From a virus, in IMG/VR virus record IMGVR_UViG_3300028800_000071, positions 16,796 to 80,795 of that record: a stretch of DNA of 64,000 nucleotides, one strand, 5' to 3'. Of the stretch, positions 33,773 through 55,526 are shown one piece after another. The notes under the pieces were generated by a model, which saw nothing but the letters and a program-made list of their open reading frames with translations, was not told the DNA's origin and made no database searches. A program made the translations under genes and the position numbers. The stretch's first letter is position 1, and every line of letters begins with the position of its first letter.

Positions 33773-34345
33773 ATGACAACCGCAAAGCGGACCCTCAACG
33801 GTCTGCGCATCGAAACCAAGAACCTTGCCGATCTCAAGGCGGCGCCCTACAACCCGCGCACGATCTCGCAAGAAGCGCTCAACGGGCTTGCGAAAAGCCT
33901 CGAACGATTCGGCATCGTCGAACCGATCATCTTCAACGAACGTACCGGGCACGTCGTCGGCGGCCACCAGCGGCTCAAGGTCCTGGAGCATCAAAAGAAG
34001 CAGCAGACCGACGTGATCGTCGTCGATCTTGAGCTCAAGGAAGAAAAGGCGCTCAACGTCGCGCTCAACAGCGAGCATATTCAGGGCGAGTTCGACGACG
34101 AAAAACTCGAGGCGCTGCTCAAAGAGATTCACGTGAGCGACAAAGAGCTATTCGACGGCCTGCGCTTCGAGGAGTTCGGCTTCAACATTGAAGCGCCGAA
34201 TATCGACGACGTGGTAGGCACGCCGAACATGGCCTTCGCCTCGAAGTTCGAGTGTATCGTCACGTGCAAAGACGAAGCCGAGCAGCGCGATCTCTACGAA
34301 CGCCTGCAAGCCGAGGGCTACAAGGTCAAGGTTCTGCAACTGTGA
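33773..34345 (+). CDS. ParB/Srx N-terminal domain protein
   Basis: LKAAPYNPR...SLERFGIVEPIIFN...VVGGHQRLK...EKALNVALN. Confidence 0.88.
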   Translation: MTTAKRTLNGLRIETKNLADLKAAPYNPRTISQEALNGLAKSLERFGIVEPIIFNERTGHVVGGHQRLKVLEHQKKQQTDVIVVDLELKEEKALNVALNSEHIQGEFDDEKLEALLKEIHVSDKELFDGLRFEEFGFNIEAPNIDDVVGTPNMAFASKFECIVTCKDEAEQRDLYERLQAEGYKVKVLQL

Positions 34346-35565
34346 TCGTCGAGCTCGAACTCAAATCGCCCGTATCGGATACGTTTCGCGTGCAGACGCT
34401 CGCGTCGCGCATGGATTACGAGCCTTCGGAGAGCACGACGTTTCGGCTCACGGCCGAGCTCCCGTCGCTCGACGAGAAGTGGAACGTCGGCCTGATCGTC
34501 GGACCGTCGGGCAGCGGCAAGACGCGGCTGCTCGAAAAGGCCTACCCGTCGTTCACAGACGCCGCCAAGTATCATTGGAAAGCCAAGTCGTTCATCGACG
34601 ATCTGGCCGAGAAGGCGAGCGTCGAACAGATCTCGCTCGCGCTCACGTCAGCCGGCTTATCGTCCGTGCCGACGTGGATGCTGCCGTATCATCGCCTTTC
34701 CAACGGTCAACAGCAACGCGCTGCGATGACGCGCGCTCTGCTCGAAACCGATGAGATCGCCTTTGACGAGTTTTCGTCGATGCTCGATCGTGTGGTTGCT
34801 CGTACGACGGCGATGGCCGTCGCGAAAACGATCCGTCGTGCCAACAAGCGGCTCGTTGTCGCCACCTGTCACTATGATATCGCTGAGTGGTTGGAAGCCG
34901 ATTGGGTTTTCGATACTGCGACGGCGACGTTGGCAAGGGGGAAACTTCAGCGACCAAAGCTCGACATTACAGTCCATCCTGCACCGCGTTCTCTCTGGCC
35001 CCTCTTTGCGCCGTATCATTATATGAATCCGCGCCAAGCGCCGGCGGCGCGCTGCTTCATCGCCACGCTCAACGTCAAAGGCGAGGAGGCGATCTGCGGG
35101 TGGGTCAGCTTCGTGCCGGTGGCCGGCTACAAACACTATTGGCGCGGCCATCGCGCCGTGGTGCTGCCCGACTTTCAGGGGATCGGGATCGGCGCGCGGT
35201 TTCCGAGCGCGTGCTTCGATATTCTGAGCAAGGAAGATCCCAAGCGTCGTATCAGTACGATCACGGGTTCGATCGCGCTCAACGTTGCGAAGCAGCGGCA
35301 GAAGTGGTGGATTCTCACGCGCGCCCCGTCACGCATCACGGGTCGTGACGTGGGGACGTTGAAAGCGACGGCGCACCGATCGTTCGAACGTTTGACGACG
35401 ACGTGGGTATTCGACGCGCCGAAGTACGACGCGAAAGCGAACGGCGAAGTGCCGCTTGATTACGACGCGTCTGCGTCTGATCAGACGAAGCGCGAAAGCG
35501 CGAAAGCGCAGACGCGAGGGCGCGTCAAGGGGGCGTCTGTGACGCGTTCAAAAGACGACGGGTGA
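34342..35565 (+). CDS. ABC-type ATPase fused to GNAT acetyltransferase
   Basis: Walker A GPSGSGKT, signature LSNGQQQR, Walker B IAFDEF, H-loop TCH; C-terminal acetyl-CoA motif VVLPDFQGIGIG. GTGA overlap with ParB. Confidence 0.88.
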   Translation: MIVELELKSPVSDTFRVQTLASRMDYEPSESTTFRLTAELPSLDEKWNVGLIVGPSGSGKTRLLEKAYPSFTDAAKYHWKAKSFIDDLAEKASVEQISLALTSAGLSSVPTWMLPYHRLSNGQQQRAAMTRALLETDEIAFDEFSSMLDRVVARTTAMAVAKTIRRANKRLVVATCHYDIAEWLEADWVFDTATATLARGKLQRPKLDITVHPAPRSLWPLFAPYHYMNPRQAPAARCFIATLNVKGEEAICGWVSFVPVAGYKHYWRGHRAVVLPDFQGIGIGARFPSACFDILSKEDPKRRISTITGSIALNVAKQRQKWWILTRAPSRITGRDVGTLKATAHRSFERLTTTWVFDAPKYDAKANGEVPLDYDASASDQTKRESAKAQTRGRVKGASVTRSKDDG

Positions 35566-35895
35566 CGTATCAGACGCGGGGGCGCGTTCAGACGCGTCAG
35601 GGGGCAGGGAAACGTCATATCCCGTCAGTCTTTCAGACGCGTTCAGAACGCGTCAGATCAGCATCGAACACCTGTTCGATACTTTCACGAATGGCAGCTT
35701 GCCCTGGTGGGCGGGCAAGCGTCGTTTTAAGCGTTTCCCTGCGTCCCTAGACCCCCCTAGCCCCCCGCAGCAGTATCAGACGCAGACGATTCTCAGACGC
35801 AGCAGGGGGCAGGGAAAGCGAGCCCCACGCGATTCTGTACGAAGCGCGTCTGAGAAGCGTCGGGGGGCGACGTTCAGATGTTCAGACGCGTCTGA
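35467..35895. repeat. Cluster of TCAGACGC/GCGTCTGA motifs
   Basis: About a dozen copies in both orientations, including the palindrome TCAGACGCGTCTGA at 35882-35895. Confidence 0.7.
35663..35680. promoter_or_regulatory. LexA (SOS) box, Gram-positive type
   Basis: ATCGAAC-ACCT-GTTCGAT matches CGAAC-N4-GTTCG. Confidence 0.65.
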
Positions 35896-40784: not shown

Positions 40785-42020
40785 TTACTGCCGAAGCGGC
40801 ATGATGATGCAGTAATCGCCGGTCCGATTCGCCAGGACGAGCGGCGAGAGCGGGTTGTGCAGGTCGGCTTCGATCTGCTCGTAATCGTCGAACGACGACA
40901 GGCAGCTGGCGAGATACTCGGCATTGAAGGCAATGCTCATATCGTTCGCGAGCGGCTTGGGCGCCGGTTCGGTGAACGCGACGAGACGCGTGAACTTTCC
41001 TTTCGTCTCGCTCTCGGCGTTGATCTCGACGGCGTTGCCCTTGGCAAGGAACAGGAGTTTGATCAACGATGCGCGGTCGCTGGCCACTTTGCCGGCGGCC
41101 GTCACGGCGGCGATCATTTCATCCACGGGGATACTGACTGTGCCGCTGATCATAGCCTTCGCCGGATAGACGGCTTCGTAGTTCGGGTACTGACCGTCCA
41201 CGCAGCGGCAGATCACGGTGATGCCGTCGCTCACGGCGATGGCGTACGTGGTGTTGGCCTTGACGGTGATCGAGACTTCGACTTCGCTGGCCTTCGGCAG
41301 AACTTTCATCATCGCTCTAGCGAATACGGGAACGACGATGGCCTTGCCGCCGGTGCCCTTCTTCTCTTGATCGCCGGTGAACGAATCACGAACGACGGCA
41401 TCCTCGATCTGGAAGTGTCCCATTTTGTAGCCGTCCGTTGCGGTGATCGCTGCGCCGGCGTTGCCTTTGATTTCGAGCAGCGTGCTCATGAGCGTGGCGC
41501 CGCGCGCTTGTTCGTCGCTCGCGTGCTTACTGCATTTGAGGAACGCCACGCGTACGTTGTCCGTCGGCGCGAGGAAGGCCGCGATGCGTTCGCCGTCGGT
41601 TGGCGGATAGGCGGGGAGGTCCTCGGCCGGCAGAGTGGGCAGCGTGACGCTGCCAATTCCCCACCCGAGATCGTCGGCGCTGGCGAGGGAGAGTTTATCT
41701 GCCTCGAACGTCAAGCGAACGTTCCCGTGAACGCCCTTGAGCATTTCCTTGAGCGCCTTGGGGCTAACGGTCGTTTCACCGGCGGTGATGCCGACGGCCG
41801 GGACTTCGGCGATGATGCGCGTTTCGAGATCGGTTCCCGTGATCGAGAGTTTGCCGGTGCGGTGATCGGCGCTCAGTTTCACGTTCGCCAAGATCGGCGT
41901 ATGCGAATGCGTGTTGACGGCGAGCAAGACTTGCGTGAGTGCCTTGACGAGATTCTTGGCGTCGGTGACGACGACGGCGGGTTCGAGTTTGGTTTGTGCT
42001 TGTGCCATGTTGATATTCAT
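40785..42020 (-). CDS. dnaN: DNA polymerase III beta sliding clamp homolog
   Basis: PILANVKL, ITGTDLE, ATDGYKM, DGQYPNYEAVYP, IAFNAEYL, IIMPLR: characteristic beta-clamp motifs across the whole length. Confidence 0.92.
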   Translation of the reverse strand: MNINMAQAQTKLEPAVVVTDAKNLVKALTQVLLAVNTHSHTPILANVKLSADHRTGKLSITGTDLETRIIAEVPAVGITAGETTVSPKALKEMLKGVHGNVRLTFEADKLSLASADDLGWGIGSVTLPTLPAEDLPAYPPTDGERIAAFLAPTDNVRVAFLKCSKHASDEQARGATLMSTLLEIKGNAGAAITATDGYKMGHFQIEDAVVRDSFTGDQEKKGTGGKAIVVPVFARAMMKVLPKASEVEVSITVKANTTYAIAVSDGITVICRCVDGQYPNYEAVYPAKAMISGTVSIPVDEMIAAVTAAGKVASDRASLIKLLFLAKGNAVEINAESETKGKFTRLVAFTEPAPKPLANDMSIAFNAEYLASCLSSFDDYEQIEADLHNPLSPLVLANRTGDYCIIMPLRQ

Positions 42021-42538
42021 TCTCCTACGGGTGCGTTGTGTGTATTGTAGAACGCCGCGACGGCGAGATTCTTGAGCATTGATTCGATGGCGCGGCATTC
42101 GGCAGCGGCGTCAACTTCGATCGCATCGAAGGCCACGTCGCCGCATTCGTCCCAAAGAATCCTGCCGCGTGTATCTATGGGACAGGTGATGAGGGTGTCG
42201 CCCTCTAGCCAATAGACCTGCGCGTCGTCAAGGATGACGAGTTGCGTGCCGGTCGGCGGCGAACTTGTATCGACTTTCTTCTCGAACTTGAGGCGGTCCG
42301 TGAGATCGACTTGTGCATCCGCCAACTTCTCGGCGTAGTTCTCCAAGTCGAGGCAGACCTGATTGAAGTCCGGCAGATAGCGCGGGTAATCCACTTGCGC
42401 GTCGAGATCGTGATCCCACGCTCGTTGCAGTTGGCGCGCGGCCTGTGCAAAGAGCATCGCGGCCTCTGGCATATCGGGGCAGGCGGAACAGAACTCGTTG
42501 GCGGCTTTGCCGTGGATGCAGTCGTAGGCGCGCTTCAT
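42017..42538 (-). CDS. Hypothetical protein
   Basis: Coupled ORF in the leftward operon (overlap with dnaN start is small). Confidence 0.5.
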   Translation of the reverse strand: MKRAYDCIHGKAANEFCSACPDMPEAAMLFAQAARQLQRAWDHDLDAQVDYPRYLPDFNQVCLDLENYAEKLADAQVDLTDRLKFEKKVDTSSPPTGTQLVILDDAQVYWLEGDTLITCPIDTRGRILWDECGDVAFDAIEVDAAAECRAIESMLKNLAVAAFYNTHNAPVGE

Positions 42539-49320: not shown

Positions 49321-49701
49321 ATGAAAAACCTGAAAGCCTTAGTATTGCTATTGGCGTTGCCGCTGCTCGCGGTGACGCAACCCATGGAACATACGGACGA
49401 CGCGCATTGCCATGCGGCCACGCAGGCCGACGATAACCCGGCGATCGTCGTGTGGTGTACGTCTGCGGCCGAAGATCACGTAACGGATGCCGAAGGCGAA
49501 AGCGGCGATTCGCGCGCGATCGATCTCGTGATGGGCGCGATGCAATTGCTCATTACGGCGCTGGCGCACCGCGAAATGGGCGACAGCAACTATCAGTATC
49601 TCGTTGACAACGCCCGCCAGGCATTACAGGAAGCCGCGCAGGCGGCGCGATCGAACCGCGTGATCTTGCTCGTCCAACACGCCCAAGAATCGTTGCCTTG
49701 A
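49321..49701 (+). CDS. Secreted/membrane hypothetical protein
   Basis: Signal-like MKNLKALVLLLALPLLA; GTAGGAGAA RBS. Confidence 0.6.
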   Translation: MKNLKALVLLLALPLLAVTQPMEHTDDAHCHAATQADDNPAIVVWCTSAAEDHVTDAEGESGDSRAIDLVMGAMQLLITALAHREMGDSNYQYLVDNARQALQEAAQAARSNRVILLVQHAQESLP

Positions 49702-50693
49702 GTCTATTCAAAAAGTCGAGCGAAACCGGCAAGAACGTTCGCGACAAAATCCTGATCTTCGGGCCGACGCATACGTCCAAGACGCACGCGGCGCTCGGCT
49801 GGCCAGATCCCGCTATCGTTGACGTCGAGAACCGTGCCGGCCACTTCTCCGACCGCTTCGACTTCTTCCACGCGCAGCCGCGCACGATGGACGATATCCT
49901 CGAGGTGATCGCCGAGCTCAAGAGCGGGCGCATCGGCTGCAAGACATTCGTGCTCGATTCGTATTCGGCGATCTACGAGAAACTCGTGGCGGTCCATACG
50001 ACCGTCACGAGCCCGCAGCAGGGCAAGGTTCCTGTCGCCGTCACGGACTATGCGACGGTCAACCGCCGCGTGGCGCCGATCCGCGAGTTCATCTTCTCGA
50101 CGATCGACCAAGACTTGATCGTCGTGGCGCACCAGCAACAGAAGTACGATCGCGCCGGCAACAATTTCTCGAAGCGCAAGGAAGTCGAGTTCATGGGCGA
50201 CGAGAAGTTCCGCTACGCGTTCGACTACGTATTCAGAACCGAGCCGACCGGCAGCGACCCGCGTACGCACGCCGTAAAGTTCGTGATCGAAAAGAGCGCT
50301 TCGCCGAAGCTCAAGATCGGCGACGTGCTGGCCGTGAAGCCGAACGAGAAGTTGTACGACGTTTTCCGGCAGCGCGTCGGAAAGGGCGAGACGGCCGCAC
50401 GGTCCTCCGCGGCCGCACCGCCTTCTCCCGAGGCGGCGCCCGCGCCCGCAAGTGAGCCGCCGCAGCAGGAGCAGCCGGCGTTGCTCGATACGGCCGTGGC
50501 CAATCGTCCGCTCACGCGCGAGCAGATCGCCGCGATTGCGAAGTTGCAGAGCCAGCTTGGTTTGAATCACGGGGATATCGGCGTCTTTGTGCTCGGCATT
50601 ACGGAGCACCGTTATCAGGACTACAAGTCGCTCACGGGCGGCGAGGCACAGACGTTGATCGCCATGCTCGAAAAGCAAGCCGCAGGCTCGTAA
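49698..50693 (+). CDS. AAA_24/Sak4-like P-loop recombination ATPase
   Basis: KILIFGPTHTSKT (variant Walker A), VDVEN, FVLDSY, IVVAH. Confidence 0.75.
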   Translation: MSLFKKSSETGKNVRDKILIFGPTHTSKTHAALGWPDPAIVDVENRAGHFSDRFDFFHAQPRTMDDILEVIAELKSGRIGCKTFVLDSYSAIYEKLVAVHTTVTSPQQGKVPVAVTDYATVNRRVAPIREFIFSTIDQDLIVVAHQQQKYDRAGNNFSKRKEVEFMGDEKFRYAFDYVFRTEPTGSDPRTHAVKFVIEKSASPKLKIGDVLAVKPNEKLYDVFRQRVGKGETAARSSAAAPPSPEAAPAPASEPPQQEQPALLDTAVANRPLTREQIAAIAKLQSQLGLNHGDIGVFVLGITEHRYQDYKSLTGGEAQTLIAMLEKQAAGS

Positions 50694-50968: not shown

Positions 50969-51366
50969 ACGCCGGCAAGAGCGAGGCGCCCGACGAATTC
51001 GAGCGCCTCCGTGATGGCATGGAACGTCCGGTATATGACCGGCGGCCGAGTCCTAAACTAGAACCCGACGCACGCCATGAAGTGGATGATCTGTTGCCCG
51101 ATCTGGGAGATAAACCCCACACAGGCCGCGATGGTGATTGCCATGGTAAGACCCTCCTTGCGTCGGATAGTAGCACAAGCCGGTTGCGCTACGCCATAGG
51201 TCGCATTGGAGCTCGTCTGATCGCTCGGGTCGAGGCAATCGTCATGGCGCTGCCAGAGAACGCCAGGACGGGCCGTGGCGGCTTCCGATGGGGCGATCTG
51301 GCCTGCTGGCTGATCTTCGGCGCCACGGCGGCCTATTTCGTCGGCCGCTCGGTTTTGGGGCGCTAG

Positions 51367-51577
51367 ATATGCACAACGGTGGACAGCCTGTGTATAACTA
51401 CCCCACTTATCCACAGGGTTATCCACAGTCAACCCTGGGTTATGCACAGGTTATGCACAGGCGCTCTAAGGATCGCGCGCCGCGCGTGCGCGCGCTACTA
51501 CTGCTACTACTGACCGTAATTTCTAATTGGTTTACGCGCGAGGCCGCTTTTTCAAAACCTGTGGATAACGGGGATAA
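51367..51577. other. oriC-like replication origin (DnaA boxes, DnaA-trios, AT-rich segment)
   Basis: TTATNCACA boxes at 51389 (rev), 51407, 51419, 51440, 51451 and 51560 (rev); GC-rich spacer; CTACTACTGCTACTACTG at 51495-51512; then TAATTTCTAATT. Confidence 0.8.
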
Positions 51578-51771
51578 GTCATGACGCCGGCATTCGAGCG
51601 ACTGCTGCGCGAACGCGCGGCCAGCGCGATCTGGGAGGAGGATCGGAAGCTCTTTGCCCAGGCCGCCGACTTCGCTCGCGATCTCGACCGCTTCATCGTG
51701 GCCTGCGAGGCGTCCCGATCGCCCGGCATGACGATGATCGATCTCGCCAAAGAACTGCGAGCCATGTTCCC

Positions 51772-52137
51772 ATGAGTGACGATCTGTCGCTCTTTGATTA
51801 CGTGCCGCCCAAACCGCCGGTCGATCTCGCGCGCGACTTCGAGCGCGGCATGGAAGAATCGCAGCGCTCGGCCAACGCCAAGTGGACCGACGACGAGATC
51901 GCGACGGTACGCAAAGCGATCCGCACCGTTGCCGGCCGGCTGCATACCTTCACGACCGATGCCGTCTGGGACGAGCTCGGCGCGGACTTTCCGTTTTCGA
52001 AAGGCATGGCATCGCAACTGCTTGCGATCGTGCACGAAGGCATCATCATCAATACCGGCCGCGTTGACGTATCGCGTCGAGGCGGCAAACACGGCCACGC
52101 TCAACGTCTGAGCGTATGGCAATCAACGCTAAAGTAG
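51772..52137 (+). CDS. Hypothetical phage protein (possible winged helix)
   Basis: FTTDAVW...GIIINTGR...VWQS pattern. Confidence 0.55.
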   Translation: MSDDLSLFDYVPPKPPVDLARDFERGMEESQRSANAKWTDDEIATVRKAIRTVAGRLHTFTTDAVWDELGADFPFSKGMASQLLAIVHEGIIINTGRVDVSRRGGKHGHAQRLSVWQSTLK

Positions 52138-52145
52138 GAGAATCT

Positions 52146-53048
52146 ATGAAAGAAAAGCATATGCTAGGGCGGGAGGTAATCATGAGCACAACAGCCTTGA
52201 TCTTCGCTCTTGCGATCGCCGGGTGCGGCGGCGCGAAAATGACCCCGGCCCCCGGCCTTACCGGCATAGCCGGGAACGTCATTGCCCAGGGGAGTGACCC
52301 CTCGTCGACGACCTTCGTCTACGTCGTCGATACGTCCACCAATAAACTCTACGTCTATCCCGGCGGCGTCAACAATCCCGCGCCGATCAGAAGCGTGACG
52401 CCAGCTGACAAACCACACGCCGTCGTGACGGACGCGGCCGGCAACGTCTACGTTTCATCGACCGAAAGCGGCGAGATCGAAGTCTATGCCAGCGGCGCAA
52501 CAAGTCTGCTCTACACGATCACCGGGTTGAATCATCCGCAAGCGCTCACGATCGACGGGAACGGCAATCTCTACAGCGCCGACGTGAACGCGAGCGTCAT
52601 CACCGAATTCGCGCCAGGCGGTACGACGCCAATCGCGACGTTCGCGACCAACGCTGCGCCGCTCGGCGGTGTGGCGGTCGATTCGAATGGTACGGTCTAC
52701 GTTGACGAAACGGGTGGCGTGATCGAAGCCTGCAACCCGACGTGCGCAACGCTCCCCGGCGTCACCGGCCCGAGCTCGGCGACCGGCGGTCTAGCCTTCA
52801 CGGGCACGACGCTCAACGTCGCAGGCGGCCGCGTCGTGGCGCATTACGATACCTCAACGTGGACGCTCACGGGTTCGACAACCTACGGCGGCGGCATTGG
52901 CGTCGTGCGCTTCATCACCGCAGCCGGCGGCGTGCTCTCGGTGCCGTTTGCATCGTCATCGCTCGCGCCATCGGCCGTCTACGTCTCCAGCGGTCAAACG
53001 ATCACCAATAGTCTGCACGTTCCCTACGGCGCGGCGATCGGGCCGTAA
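52146..53048 (+). CDS. NHL-repeat (beta-propeller) lipoprotein
   Basis: Lipobox LAIAG-C; repeats PHAVVTDAAGNVYV, PQALTIDGNGNLYSAD, GVAVDSNGTVYV. Alternative start at 52182. Confidence 0.8.
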   Translation: MKEKHMLGREVIMSTTALIFALAIAGCGGAKMTPAPGLTGIAGNVIAQGSDPSSTTFVYVVDTSTNKLYVYPGGVNNPAPIRSVTPADKPHAVVTDAAGNVYVSSTESGEIEVYASGATSLLYTITGLNHPQALTIDGNGNLYSADVNASVITEFAPGGTTPIATFATNAAPLGGVAVDSNGTVYVDETGGVIEACNPTCATLPGVTGPSSATGGLAFTGTTLNVAGGRVVAHYDTSTWTLTGSTTYGGGIGVVRFITAAGGVLSVPFASSSLAPSAVYVSSGQTITNSLHVPYGAAIGP

Positions 53049-53076
53049 CACTAGCGCTTCTCATGAGGTTGTCAAA

Positions 53077-54285
53077 ATGAATCTCCGCAAACTCCCGCTC
53101 TACGCCGGCGCGGTCGCGATGATCTTCGCGGCGCTCGCGCTACTTGGCAGCAACGGAGGCAATCCGTTCACCGGCAAGCCAACCCCGTCGCCGTCGGCGT
53201 CGGCATCGCCAACTCCAACGCCGCAACCGACGCCGACGCCGATCATTAGTCATATCCCGCGAGTGACCGGCACGTATTGGCTCGGTAAATGCCAAGTCTA
53301 CAACGGCAAGAAGCGTCAACCCGATCCGATCGCCAACGCGATTCTTTCGCAATACGGGACCGACCCCAATGGTCCGAGCGTGATCGCAACCGCAGCGCCG
53401 CACGTCACGTTTTCGTCTGGCGACAACGCCGGCCTTGAGGTCGTCAATCTCGCAAACAACAGCACGCCGATGCTCACAATCAACACCGTGCCCGGGGGGC
53501 ACAGCCCGCCCTTCTCTCCCGGTGCGTACGGCGGCGGTTCGAATGCACAGATCCCGTGGTGCTCGACGACGAGTCTGCCGGGTTGTCCGAATGGTCCGTT
53601 TCAGATCGAGAATACCAACGCGCCGAACGATCACGATCAGTACGGCAGCGGCGACGGCCATACGGCCGTGCTCAATCAAGATACGTGCGTGCTGTATCAA
53701 GCCGGCGGTGCTCGGTGGGCCAACACCGGCGGCAGCAACGGCACGTTCTCTGCCTACAACGGATTCACCGATAACCTTTTCACCGATTACGATCATCAAG
53801 GCACGCCGTGGTCGCAGAACAAGGGCGACAACGTAACGGTGAGCGGTACGGGCGTCGTCAACTTCACGGATTACGACGACGACTTCGGAGCGAGGACGAT
53901 CAATCACCCGATCGGCATGATCTTGCCAACGTCGGTCGTCGTTTGTTACAACACGTGCGGGTCAATGGGCGTGAACTATTCGCCTGGCACCGGCGGTGAT
54001 GGCGCGTGTAGCGTTGGTCCGACGAAGTGTTTTATCTACGGCGATATCGTGTGGTTGCCGCTTACGTATATCTGTCCGACCGGCGACGATTGGACGTATA
54101 AGTTCTGCTTGCAACTCAAGACACAAGGGGCGGTCGTGCAGGACACGGGGTCGAGTCCGACGTTTCGATTCGGGTATGGGTTGGACGGAACGCATACGTA
54201 CGACCCGACGTTGTGGTCGTACATTCACAGCCTGCCGTTGTCGGCGTTCGTGCTCGCCTGTCGCGGATGCTTAACGCCCCCGTAA
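53077..54285 (+). CDS. Secreted/surface protein with Pro-Thr linker
   Basis: N-terminal TM, PTPSPSASASPTPTPQPTPTP linker, Cys-rich domain (GDGHTAVLNQDTCVLYQ). Confidence 0.7.
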   Translation: MNLRKLPLYAGAVAMIFAALALLGSNGGNPFTGKPTPSPSASASPTPTPQPTPTPIISHIPRVTGTYWLGKCQVYNGKKRQPDPIANAILSQYGTDPNGPSVIATAAPHVTFSSGDNAGLEVVNLANNSTPMLTINTVPGGHSPPFSPGAYGGGSNAQIPWCSTTSLPGCPNGPFQIENTNAPNDHDQYGSGDGHTAVLNQDTCVLYQAGGARWANTGGSNGTFSAYNGFTDNLFTDYDHQGTPWSQNKGDNVTVSGTGVVNFTDYDDDFGARTINHPIGMILPTSVVVCYNTCGSMGVNYSPGTGGDGACSVGPTKCFIYGDIVWLPLTYICPTGDDWTYKFCLQLKTQGAVVQDTGSSPTFRFGYGLDGTHTYDPTLWSYIHSLPLSAFVLACRGCLTPP

Positions 54286-54947
54286 TGCTGCTTATGACCC
54301 TGATCGGGTGGAGTCTCGCGGCCTACTTCGCAATGGCGGTGTGGGCCGCGGCTCTACGGTACGTCAAAATCAAAGAGCGCGTCGAGCGGGCATTGCAGAT
54401 CGCGCGAGCGCATACCGACTGCGGCGGCATTGATCGCAACTGCTGGTGCAGTCGAATCATGACGGCGCTAACGATGGAGAAAGCCGAATGAAACGATTCA
54501 TCGACTATTGGAGCTACGACGATAATTTCGGGCATCACTTTGCGTGGGGCGCGTTAGCGTTGGTGATCTTCGTCGTAGCGGCGATCATCGGCGTGATCTT
54601 TATGGTCGCGACGGCGTTCGCTTCGACGCCGGCCGCTACGCCGACGCCGTGCGGCGGGTACGATTGTCGCGGGACGGCAACCCCGCAGCCTGGCCAGACG
54701 GCAGCGCCATATACGCACGAATGCAATCTCGGGTGGGACGAACCGTGCTTCCCGCTGCCGAGCCCGACGCCATGAACGACGAACAGGGCTTTCGTACCGG
54801 CGCCTGGCTGTGCTTCTTGGCGCTCGCGATCGTTTTCGGGTCCGTCGCCGGCGCCATGATTTCCCTGCCGCCGTTCGATCTCGCTGCGGTCGGCTATATG
54901 CTCGGGATCGCAGGCGTATCGGCATTGCTGGCGATCGCGGTGAGGCC

Positions 54948-55526
54948 ATGACGGCCGAAGCCTTTACGGAGCAGCAGATGGGCGGCGAACGCGAACCGTT
55001 CCTGTCGATCTTTATCCCCGGCGAACCGTACCCGAAAGGGTCGCTCACGCCCATTACGCAGGGCACGCGTCTCGTCTACGACAAGCGCTTGAAACGTATG
55101 GGCAAGAAGCCGATCATCCGAATGCTGCCGGCGCACGATAAGTTGCGTAAGGACGGGACGCGCGGCGATGCGCGCAAGCGAGCGGAGATATGGACGCTTC
55201 ACGTCACGACGGCCTTCAACGTCTGGCAACTGACGCATAAGCGCGTGCCGGGCGACGACGAGGCGATCCGCGCGGAGCTCGTATTCGTTTTGCCGCGCCC
55301 GCCATCGCGCAAGAAGGCGAAGTATCCGAACCGCAAACCTGATCTCGATAAGCTCGCGCGTTGCGTCTATGATTGCGCCGTGCGGGCGAAGGTGCTCGGT
55401 GAGGATTCGCGCATCGTCAAGCAGCAGCATGAGAAGATCTTCCCGATCGAGCTCGTATATCCGCAGTACAATCCCGATACGGCCTTCCTGCCGACCGGCG
55501 TTCACGTCAAGTTGTGGGTTCTGTGA
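54948..55526 (+). CDS. rusA: RusA-like Holliday junction resolvase
   Basis: IPGEPYPKGS...FVLPRP...KPDLDKLARCVYD...EDSRIV. Confidence 0.85.
   Translation: MTAEAFTEQQMGGEREPFLSIFIPGEPYPKGSLTPITQGTRLVYDKRLKRMGKKPIIRMLPAHDKLRKDGTRGDARKRAEIWTLHVTTAFNVWQLTHKRVPGDDEAIRAELVFVLPRPPSRKKAKYPNRKPDLDKLARCVYDCAVRAKVLGEDSRIVKQQHEKIFPIELVYPQYNPDTAFLPTGVHVKLWVL

What the first reader, a model, noticed from the sequence alone, without database searches (positions are those of the whole stretch)
51367..51577. Bacterial oriC mimic inside a phage: DnaA boxes, DnaA-trios and AT-rich unwinding segment
Seen: six matches to TTATNCACA within ~180 bp (two head-to-tail pairs with 12- and 11-bp periods), two further near-matches, a GC-rich spacer, then CTA-CTA-CTG-CTA-CTA-CTG and an AT-rich patch. 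Established: box, GC spacer, trinucleotide DnaA-trios and AT cluster is the basal unwinding architecture of Bacillus-type chromosomal origins. No phage initiator, helicase or polymerase is recognisable in the window. Inference: the phage replicates by recruiting host DnaA directly (possibly as a plasmid-like prophage), or titrates DnaA to stall host replication.
Basis: partly seen in the sequence, partly recalled or inferred. Interest (0 to 1): 0.78.

Follow-up and report, generated by a model that had tools for sequence, protein, structure and literature searches.

The report
Host-DnaA binding array in a phage
A soil phage carries a dense cluster of binding sites for the host replication initiator DnaA, laid out partly like a bacterial chromosome origin, so it probably borrows or soaks up host DnaA; similar site arrays turn out to be common in phages.

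Summary
A 214-bp non-coding gap (51367-51580) holds eight DnaA boxes. All six exact TTATNCACA sites of the 80.8-kb record lie here, against 0.6 expected. After them come a 35-bp spacer (80% GC), CTACTACTG twice (unique in the record), an AT-rich patch and two inward-facing boxes.

The polarity is that of the bacterial basal unwinding system (BUS), and 3'-GATGATGAC-5' is a very common DnaA-trio string in real oriCs. However, the box-to-trio spacer is 35 bp with no weak box in it, while the BUS rule is 16 bp or less. It resembles a BUS but is not a canonical one.

The record has no recognisable DnaA, DnaB-type helicase, integrase or transposase. It does encode a divergent beta-clamp and a Sak4-like recombinase. 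About 17% of the genome is missing.

The uniqueness is overstated. Tandem DnaA-box arrays occur in at least 119 IMG/VR contigs and in Klebsiella, Microbacterium and Arthrobacter phage records, and are described for T5-like phages. They mostly sit next to terminase genes or genome ends and show no trio enrichment.

Best reading: a DnaA-dependent phage origin (about 0.45). Main rival: a DnaA sink or DnaA-gated control element (about 0.35). Nothing here is experimental.

The parts
51367..51375 (+). near-consensus DnaA box ATATGCACA, directly after the stop codon of the upstream ORF
51389..51397 (-). DnaA box TTATACACA (inverted)
51407..51427 (+). head-to-tail pair of perfect DnaA boxes TTATCCACA, 3-bp gap (12-bp period)
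51440..51459 (+). head-to-tail pair of DnaA boxes TTATGCACA, 2-bp GG gap (11-bp period)
51460..51494 (.). 35-bp spacer, 80% GC, with one GATC and an alternating GC tract; no DnaA box with 4 or fewer mismatches in the + orientation
   Evidence: no significant fold
51495..51512 (+). CTACTACTG x2, i.e. six DnaA-trio-like triplets (3'-GATGATGAC-5' x2 on the - strand), in BUS polarity relative to the + strand boxes
51513..51559 (.). AT-rich patch (33% GC over 51513-51536); candidate unwinding element or promoter
   Evidence: no sigma-70-type promoter found
51560..51577 (-). abutting boxes TTATCCACA and TTATCCCCG facing the AT-rich patch, 3 bp before the ATG at 51581
51581..51775 (+). 64-aa ORF of unknown function, first gene after the array
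51772..52137 (+). 121-aa phage protein with a winged-helix-like core, in a family of 138 representative clusters; N-terminal xLSLFD motif resembles a beta-clamp-binding peptide (inference)
49698..50693 (+). Sak4-like AAA_24 recombinase upstream of the array
40785..42098 (-). divergent full-length DnaN (beta sliding clamp) homologue
54810..55526 (+). RusA-like resolvase downstream (weak match)

Best explanation
The locus is a real, helically phased array of high-affinity binding sites for the host initiator DnaA. It most likely serves as this phage's replication origin.

Proposed mechanism (inferred): host DnaA occupies the two tandem box pairs and the inward-facing boxes on the other side. ATP-DnaA oligomers then engage the 3'-GATGATGAC-5' x2 trio strand and open the adjacent AT-rich patch (51495-51559). 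Host helicase, loader and Pol III are recruited, helped by the phage's own beta-clamp. Sak4-dependent recombination then drives later replication.

Shown: the sites, their statistics, their polarity and their genomic position. Inferred: DnaA binding, unwinding, and use as an origin.
For: All six exact boxes of the record lie in 180 bp. They form pairs with 2-3-bp gaps on one helical face. This is the arrangement I recall as needed for cooperative DnaA binding (Hansen et al. 2007, from memory). The trio string is unique in the record. It has the BUS polarity and is identical to a string present in many predicted oriC BUS modules, with 122 occurrences in the supplementary table, e.g. H. pylori, S. 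coelicolor and M. gilvum. Only 1 of 93 other phage arrays has a run of 6 or more. An AT-rich patch among the top ~16 of the record is bracketed by convergent boxes. The site lies between Sak4 and RusA, where temperate siphophages usually keep organizer and ori (position argument from established knowledge; PMC5499656). It is the only iteron-like array in 35.5-58.6 kb. No DnaA, DnaB_C, AAA_25, integrase or rve match exists in the 80.8 kb.
Against: The spacer between the last box and the first trio is 35 bp with no weak box, against 16 bp or less in the BUS definition. The AT-rich patch is short, and no 13-mer-type repeats or IHF site are present. GC skew follows transcription and shows no inflection at the site. 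Most phage DnaA-box arrays sit in phages with their own replication systems and next to terminase genes or genome ends. About 17% of the genome is missing and most early genes are unannotatable, so a phage initiator could be hidden. No relatives were found to test conservation.
Confidence: 0.45

Rival explanations
1. DnaA sink or DnaA-gated control element, not an origin. On the multi-copy phage DNA the array would titrate host DnaA. That would stall host initiation or de-repress DnaA-controlled genes. It could also act as an operator that puts the downstream operon (64-aa, 121-aa, NHL propeller, secreted protein) under DnaA control. On this reading the trio-like repeat is coincidental.
For: Same-orientation boxes with 2-3-bp gaps occur in at least 119 viral contigs of all GC contents. 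They also occur at the left end of Klebsiella phage ZK1, an Autographiviridae with six perfect boxes in 200 bp, and in T5-like iss regions, where an origin role is judged unlikely. Array neighbours are mostly terminases, not replication genes. The right-hand boxes end 3 bp before the ATG at 51581, an operator-like position. datA has a comparable site count, two consensus plus four one-misfit boxes (PMC5835720). The BUS spacing rule fails.
Against: It does not explain the unique trio string in correct polarity next to an AT-rich patch. No sigma-70-type promoter was found in the gap. This array is internal, in the recombination/replication module, not at a genome end. Homologues of the downstream 121-aa gene never carry DnaA boxes nearby (0 of 80 loci), so the array is not a conserved operator of that gene.
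Confidence: 0.35
2. Auxiliary DnaA boxes of an origin fired by a phage-encoded initiator, as in P1 oriR, pSC101 or RK2 oriV. The initiator would be one of the unannotated early proteins or lie in the missing ~17% of the genome.
For: Most early ORFs have no family match. The record is estimated at 83% complete. CTACTACTG x2 could be a pair of iterons for the adjacent winged-helix protein.
Against: There are only two copies of the 9-mer and no other iteron family at or near the site. Loci of the winged-helix family show no DnaA boxes. No Rep-like, helicase or primase signature was found in six-frame searches.
Confidence: 0.12
3. Non-functional relic: a fragment of a host oriC or dnaA-promoter region picked up together with the downstream cargo-like genes, or a chance cluster.
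For: The genes just downstream (NHL beta-propeller, signal-peptide protein) look like cargo rather than core phage genes.
Against: Chance is excluded statistically. Perfect boxes, phasing and symmetry argue for maintenance by selection. The same sequence recurs without change in several rhizosphere metagenome runs, though this is the same phage and not independent. No matching bacterial locus was found.
Confidence: 0.08

Closest known systems
Bacterial oriC basal unwinding system (BUS: DnaA boxes, DnaA-trios, AT-rich region; Richardson 2016, Pelliciari 2021, PMC8287927, PMC6669920)
   Same: Tandem same-orientation boxes, then a GC-rich gap, then six triplets with central A on the bound strand (3'-GATGATGAC-5' x2), then AT-rich DNA. 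Polarity is identical, and the trio string is identical to that of many real oriCs.
   Different: The gap is 35 bp instead of about 3-4 bp after a proximal box (16 bp or less overall). The AT-rich part is short. The locus is in a phage, not next to dnaA/dnaN. A second, inverted box pair closes the far side. Canonical examples fetched for comparison (L131, L134) have weak boxes 4 bp from the trios and a long AT tract.
DnaA-box clusters of T5-like phages (injection stop signal region; bioRxiv 10.1101/866236) and left-end arrays of Autographiviridae
   Same: About eight boxes, many in pairs separated by 2-3 bp, in non-coding phage DNA with inverted symmetry.
   Different: Those lie in terminal repeats or at genome ends of phages with their own replication machinery, and an origin role is considered unlikely. 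This one is internal, in the early recombination/replication operon, and has trios plus an AT patch.
E. coli DnaA titration and regulatory loci (datA, mioC promoter region, DARS)
   Same: A cluster of consensus and one-misfit boxes. Close same-orientation spacing plus a distal box about 100 bp away resembles the mioC arrangement (my recollection of Hansen et al. 2007). The datA box count is from PMC5835720.
   Different: No IHF consensus at the site. Phage context. Function untested.
Iteron origins with auxiliary DnaA boxes (P1 oriR, pSC101, RK2 oriV) and DnaA-stimulated lambda replication
   Same: A mobile element uses host DnaA at or near its origin (established knowledge; lambda in PMC5499656).
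   Different: No Rep/O-type initiator gene and no iteron set were found here.

Membership tests
oriC basal unwinding system (BUS) | At least one DnaA box with 2 or fewer mismatches to TTATCCACA, usually a tandem pair | tested here: met
   Four same-orientation boxes with 0-1 mismatch at 51407-51459
oriC basal unwinding system (BUS) | Three or more DnaA-trios (3'-NAN-5', consensus 3'-GAT-5') downstream of the box, on the strand opposite 5'-TTATCCACA-3' | tested here: met
   Six triplets at 51495-51512, four GAT and two GAC; polarity as in the supplementary tables of PMC8287927
oriC basal unwinding system (BUS) | Spacer between the box and the first trio of 0-16 bp (peak 10-13) | tested here: not met
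   35 bp from 51459 to 51495. The best candidate 9-mer in between has 5 mismatches
oriC basal unwinding system (BUS) | AT-rich unwinding region distal to the trios | tested here: inconclusive
   51513-51536 is 33% GC and ranks in the top ~16 of the record, but it is only about 25-45 bp long and also sits in a promoter-like position
oriC basal unwinding system (BUS) | ATP-DnaA-dependent strand separation and origin activity | not testable with these tools
   Needs EMSA, KMnO4/P1 probing and replication assays
T5-type phage DnaA-box cluster (iss) | About eight boxes in pairs 3 bp apart, embedded in the IRC/IRD inverted repeats of the terminal-repeat non-coding region | tested here: not met
   Box number and pairing are similar. 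The site is internal, 55 kb from the terminase, and the record has no end repeats
Iteron-type phage or plasmid origin with auxiliary DnaA boxes | Set of three or more iterons plus a cognate initiator gene nearby | tested here: not met
   Only CTACTACTG x2; no other repeat family; no Rep, helicase or primase match
datA-like DnaA titration locus | Cluster of high-affinity boxes plus an IHF site; titration or DnaA-ATP hydrolysis activity | tested here: inconclusive
   Boxes are present. There is no WATCARNNNNTTR match in 51200-51700. Activity is not testable here

The most novel reading that the evidence does not exclude
A tailed phage that encodes no initiator of its own and fires replication from a compact oriC-like module, using host DnaA alone. 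The module would consist of phased DnaA boxes, canonical DnaA-trios and a short DUE, but with a 35-bp GC spacer that breaks the bacterial spacing rule. The phage would supply only a beta-clamp and a recombinase. This would be one functional variant within a large, essentially unstudied class of DnaA-box arrays in phage genomes.
Probability: 0.3. Interest if true: 0.75.

Novelty: new variant of a known kind. Interest (0 to 1): 0.55.

Why it matters
If the array is an origin, it would be a natural minimal DnaA-only replicon on a virus. It would also be a natural experiment on the BUS spacing rule: trios 35 bp from the nearest box. It would show a route by which phages dispense with an initiator gene.

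Whatever its role here, the survey shows that tandem DnaA-box arrays are frequent in phage genomes of very different GC content and type. The papers I could search discuss them only for T5-like phages. Phage manipulation of the host initiator, as origin, sink or anchor, may therefore be a general and testable theme.

Tried and rejected
Relatives:
- Protein-anchored scans with the NHL protein, Sak4-like protein and large terminase found nothing in viral contigs or genome contigs.
- The 121-aa protein gave two weak partial loci without a box cluster.
- blastn of 49-56 kb against phage records gave only one trivial hit.

Association test: 80 loci encoding homologues of the 121-aa protein hold no TTATNCACA at all. 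The array is therefore not a conserved partner of that gene.

BUS-like modules in other phages: no viral contig has tandem boxes followed within 3-33 nt by CTACTACTG. Five metagenome hits were found; two look like ordinary oriCs and none is related to this phage.

Population variation: contigs of four other rhizosphere runs are identical fragments of the same phage, so they give no conservation signal and no usable depth. No RNA holder is listed.

Other negative results:
- GC skew tracks gene orientation and is uninformative.
- No sigma-70-type promoter or convincing terminator in the gap.
- No significant single-strand fold of 51455-51560.
- No IHF, CtrA or GANTC sites, and only one GATC, in the array.
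- GATC looks threefold over-represented against base composition, but trinucleotide usage explains it.
- The plasmid database gave only chance matches to an IS element.
- The 310-aa and 462-aa ORFs downstream were considered as O/P-like replication genes and rejected. They are an NHL beta-propeller and a signal-peptide protein.

Full report
**Context.** The window is the last 64 kb of an 80,795-bp IMG/VR virus record. The record is linear, has no end repeats and is estimated at 83% complete. Its GC content is about 61%. The same sequence occurs in several rhizosphere metagenome runs.

Gene layout was taken from GC3-guided ORF calls and family scans:
- Structural genes lie on the + strand up to about 35.5 kb.
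- A - strand block at 36.9-47 kb includes a divergent but full-length beta sliding clamp at 40785-42098 (Pfam DNA_pol3_beta N/C domains; TIGR00663 E=3e-31, below cut-off).
- A + strand block starts at 47 kb. It contains a Sak4-like AAA_24 protein (49698-50693), small ORFs, the non-coding gap in question, then ORFs of 64 and 121 aa.
- Next come an NHL-repeat beta-propeller (52116-53048; PDB matches to PknD sensor/Pizza proteins) and a protein with a signal peptide and a Pro/Thr linker (true start near the MNLRK... methionine).
- Further downstream are a weak RusA-like match and a C5 methylase.

**The observation.**
- Six exact TTATNCACA sites lie within 51389-51568. The expectation is 0.61 for the whole 64 kb, and no shuffle reaches six. 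There is no further site in the other 16.8 kb of the record.
- With two mismatches allowed, the whole-window count is at chance level (74 against 77). The signal is therefore the local concentration of near-perfect sites, plus ATATGCACA at 51367 and TTATCCCCG at 51569(-).
- The four central + strand boxes form two head-to-tail pairs with 3-bp and 2-bp gaps. All five + strand sites fall within 2 bp of the same helical phase.
- A 35-bp spacer of 80% GC follows, then CTACTACTG twice (51495-51512). This is the only run of four or more CT[AG] triplets in the record, although generic NTN x6 runs are not rare, with 47 positions.
- A patch of 33% GC follows. Its best 30-bp window ranks among about 16 comparably AT-rich regions of the record.
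- Two abutting inverted boxes close the far side, 3 bp before the ATG at 51581.

**Comparison with the bacterial unwinding module.** The published BUS definition has three parts (PMC8287927):
- a box with 2 or fewer mismatches;
- a spacer of 0-16 bp, with a peak at 10-13 that is described as an apparent maximum;
- at least three triplets with a central adenine on the bound strand.

The paper's supplementary tables write modules 3'->5' as AATAGGTGT..gap..GATGAT.... On the other strand this reads 5'-TTATCCACA..gap..CTACTA-3', which is exactly the polarity seen here.

The string 3'-GATGATGAC-5' occurs 122 times in the table of predicted modules. Examples are H. pylori, S. coelicolor and M. gilvum. 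Experimentally used scaffolds of S. elongatus and H. pylori contain CTACTACTG itself.

Box quality, polarity, trio number and trio sequence are therefore met. The spacing is not. From the last box (ending at 51459) to the first triplet (51495) there are 35 bp, and the best 9-mer in between has five mismatches. Two metagenomic loci fetched for comparison (L131, L134) show what a canonical module looks like: weak boxes 4 bp from the trios and a long AT tract. The phage locus resembles a BUS, but I do not file it as one.

**Is there a phage initiator?** ORF-based Pfam, PHROG and NCBIfam scans of the early regions and of the 16.8 kb outside the window found no initiator, helicase, primase or polymerase. 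Six-frame searches of the whole record were negative for DnaB_C, AAA_25, Bac_DnaA, tyrosine and serine recombinases and rve. The only hit of this kind is a lone ParB_N-domain protein in the late region.

No other iteron-like repeat family exists between 35.5 and 58.6 kb. These negatives are limited by two things: most early proteins match nothing, and an estimated 17% of the genome is missing.

**How unusual is a DnaA-box array in a phage?** It is not unusual.
Their GC content ranges from 0.33 to 0.66.
- After de-duplication to 97 loci, the median array has five boxes with 1 or fewer mismatches, and 85% of boxes are in one orientation.
- The most frequent neighbouring gene is a large terminase (about 26 of 82 on one side). 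Primase-helicase or polymerase neighbours are a small minority.
- A quarter of the arrays lie within 500 bp of a locus end, against 14% expected.
- In cultured phages the box segment matches non-coding DNA of Klebsiella, Microbacterium, Arthrobacter and Vibrio phages. Klebsiella phage vB_KpnP_ZK1 (Autographiviridae) has six perfect boxes in its first 200 bp.
- For T5-like phages, eight boxes in pairs 3 bp apart have been described in the injection-stop region. The author argues against a replication role (bioRxiv 10.1101/866236).
- Across the 93 arrays that could be scored, trio-like runs downstream are no more frequent than in two controls (means 2.48 against 2.44 and 2.63). Only one array reaches a run of six.
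- No other viral contig combines tandem boxes with CTACTACTG within 3-33 nt.

The array as such belongs to a common and poorly understood class. The trio string plus AT patch is what sets this locus apart.

**The downstream gene.** The 121-aa protein has no Pfam family. It belongs to a phage family with 138 representative clusters and at least 359 IMG/VR loci. Feature and structure look-alikes point weakly to a winged-helix fold.

Many members carry an xSLFD-type motif ahead of the conserved core. This resembles the QL[SD]LF beta-clamp-binding peptide. That is my inference and is untested.

None of 80 loci with a homologue contains a single DnaA box within about 5 kb. The array is therefore not a conserved operator or origin attached to this gene.

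**Weighing the explanations.** That host DnaA binds here is very likely (about 0.9) from site quality, number, pairing and phasing. What the binding achieves is not settled.

For an origin:
- the unique, correctly oriented, archetypal trio string;
- the AT-rich patch enclosed by convergent boxes;
- the position between the recombinase and RusA;
- the absence of any other iteron set or initiator.

Against an origin:
- the failed spacing rule and the short AT patch;
- the uninformative skew;
- the base rate set by arrays in phages that plainly do not need DnaA.

I put a DnaA-dependent origin at 0.45 and a DnaA sink or DnaA-gated control element at 0.35. An auxiliary role beside an unrecognised phage initiator gets 0.12, and a relic 0.08. 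All functional statements are inference; no experiment or expression data bear on them.

**Verdict.** The oriC resemblance is partial. I class it as a new variant of a known kind (DnaA-box arrays on phages and plasmids), with interest of about 0.55.

Noticed in passing
IMG/VR loci L010-L128; phage record OK625527.1 (L135:19-198): Tandem DnaA-box arrays (TTATNCACA with 2-bp GG linkers, often 4-11 boxes in one orientation) occur in at least 119 viral contigs of GC 0.33-0.66 and in cultured Klebsiella, Microbacterium, Arthrobacter and Vibrio phages. Their commonest neighbour is the large terminase, and many lie near contig or genome ends. This looks like a widespread, largely undescribed phage feature.
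   Followed up: partly
window 51772-52137: The 121-aa protein belongs to a large phage-only family (138 representative clusters, at least 359 IMG/VR loci) with a conserved winged-helix-like core (FTADDVW...TKG...QRLTVW). Ahead of the core there is a recurrent N-terminal xSLFD motif that resembles a beta-clamp-binding peptide. The phage encodes its own DnaN-like clamp at 40785-42098.
   Followed up: partly
window 51061-51145 (- strand) and about 51245-51366 (+ strand): Just upstream of the array there are two small hydrophobic ORFs. One is a 28-aa peptide on the - strand (MAITIAACVGF...) preceded by an AAGGAGGG ribosome-binding site. The other is a ~40-aa + strand ORF ending in a membrane-like segment. 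Possibly small membrane peptides or a toxin-like pair.
   Followed up: no
window 52116-54285: Directly downstream of the array lie an NHL-repeat beta-propeller (PknD-sensor-like) and a Cys-rich protein with a signal peptide and a Pro/Thr linker. This is cargo-like, exported content in the middle of the early operon.
   Followed up: partly
window 33773-35565: A lone ParB_N-domain protein is followed by a 437-aa protein with weak P-loop ATPase and GNAT matches, at the end of the late operon. No ParA was found, so this is not evidence for plasmid-type partition.
   Followed up: no
L114:6971-7344 and the related high-GC loci L020, L055, L058, L101, L109, L117: In a group of 64-66% GC viral contigs, four tandem perfect DnaA boxes sit in a ~370-bp gap between an Sf6-type small terminase gene and the next large gene. 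The gap also holds other short direct repeats (CAACAAGTGGCG, GCGAATCAAGCACTT), which suggests a link between DnaA boxes and the packaging or genome-end region.
   Followed up: partly
window 35541-35891: Several 13-25-nt direct repeats (e.g. TCAGACGCGTCAGGGGGCAGGGAAA x2, 205 bp apart) lie in the non-coding stretch between the late operon and the - strand early block.
   Followed up: no
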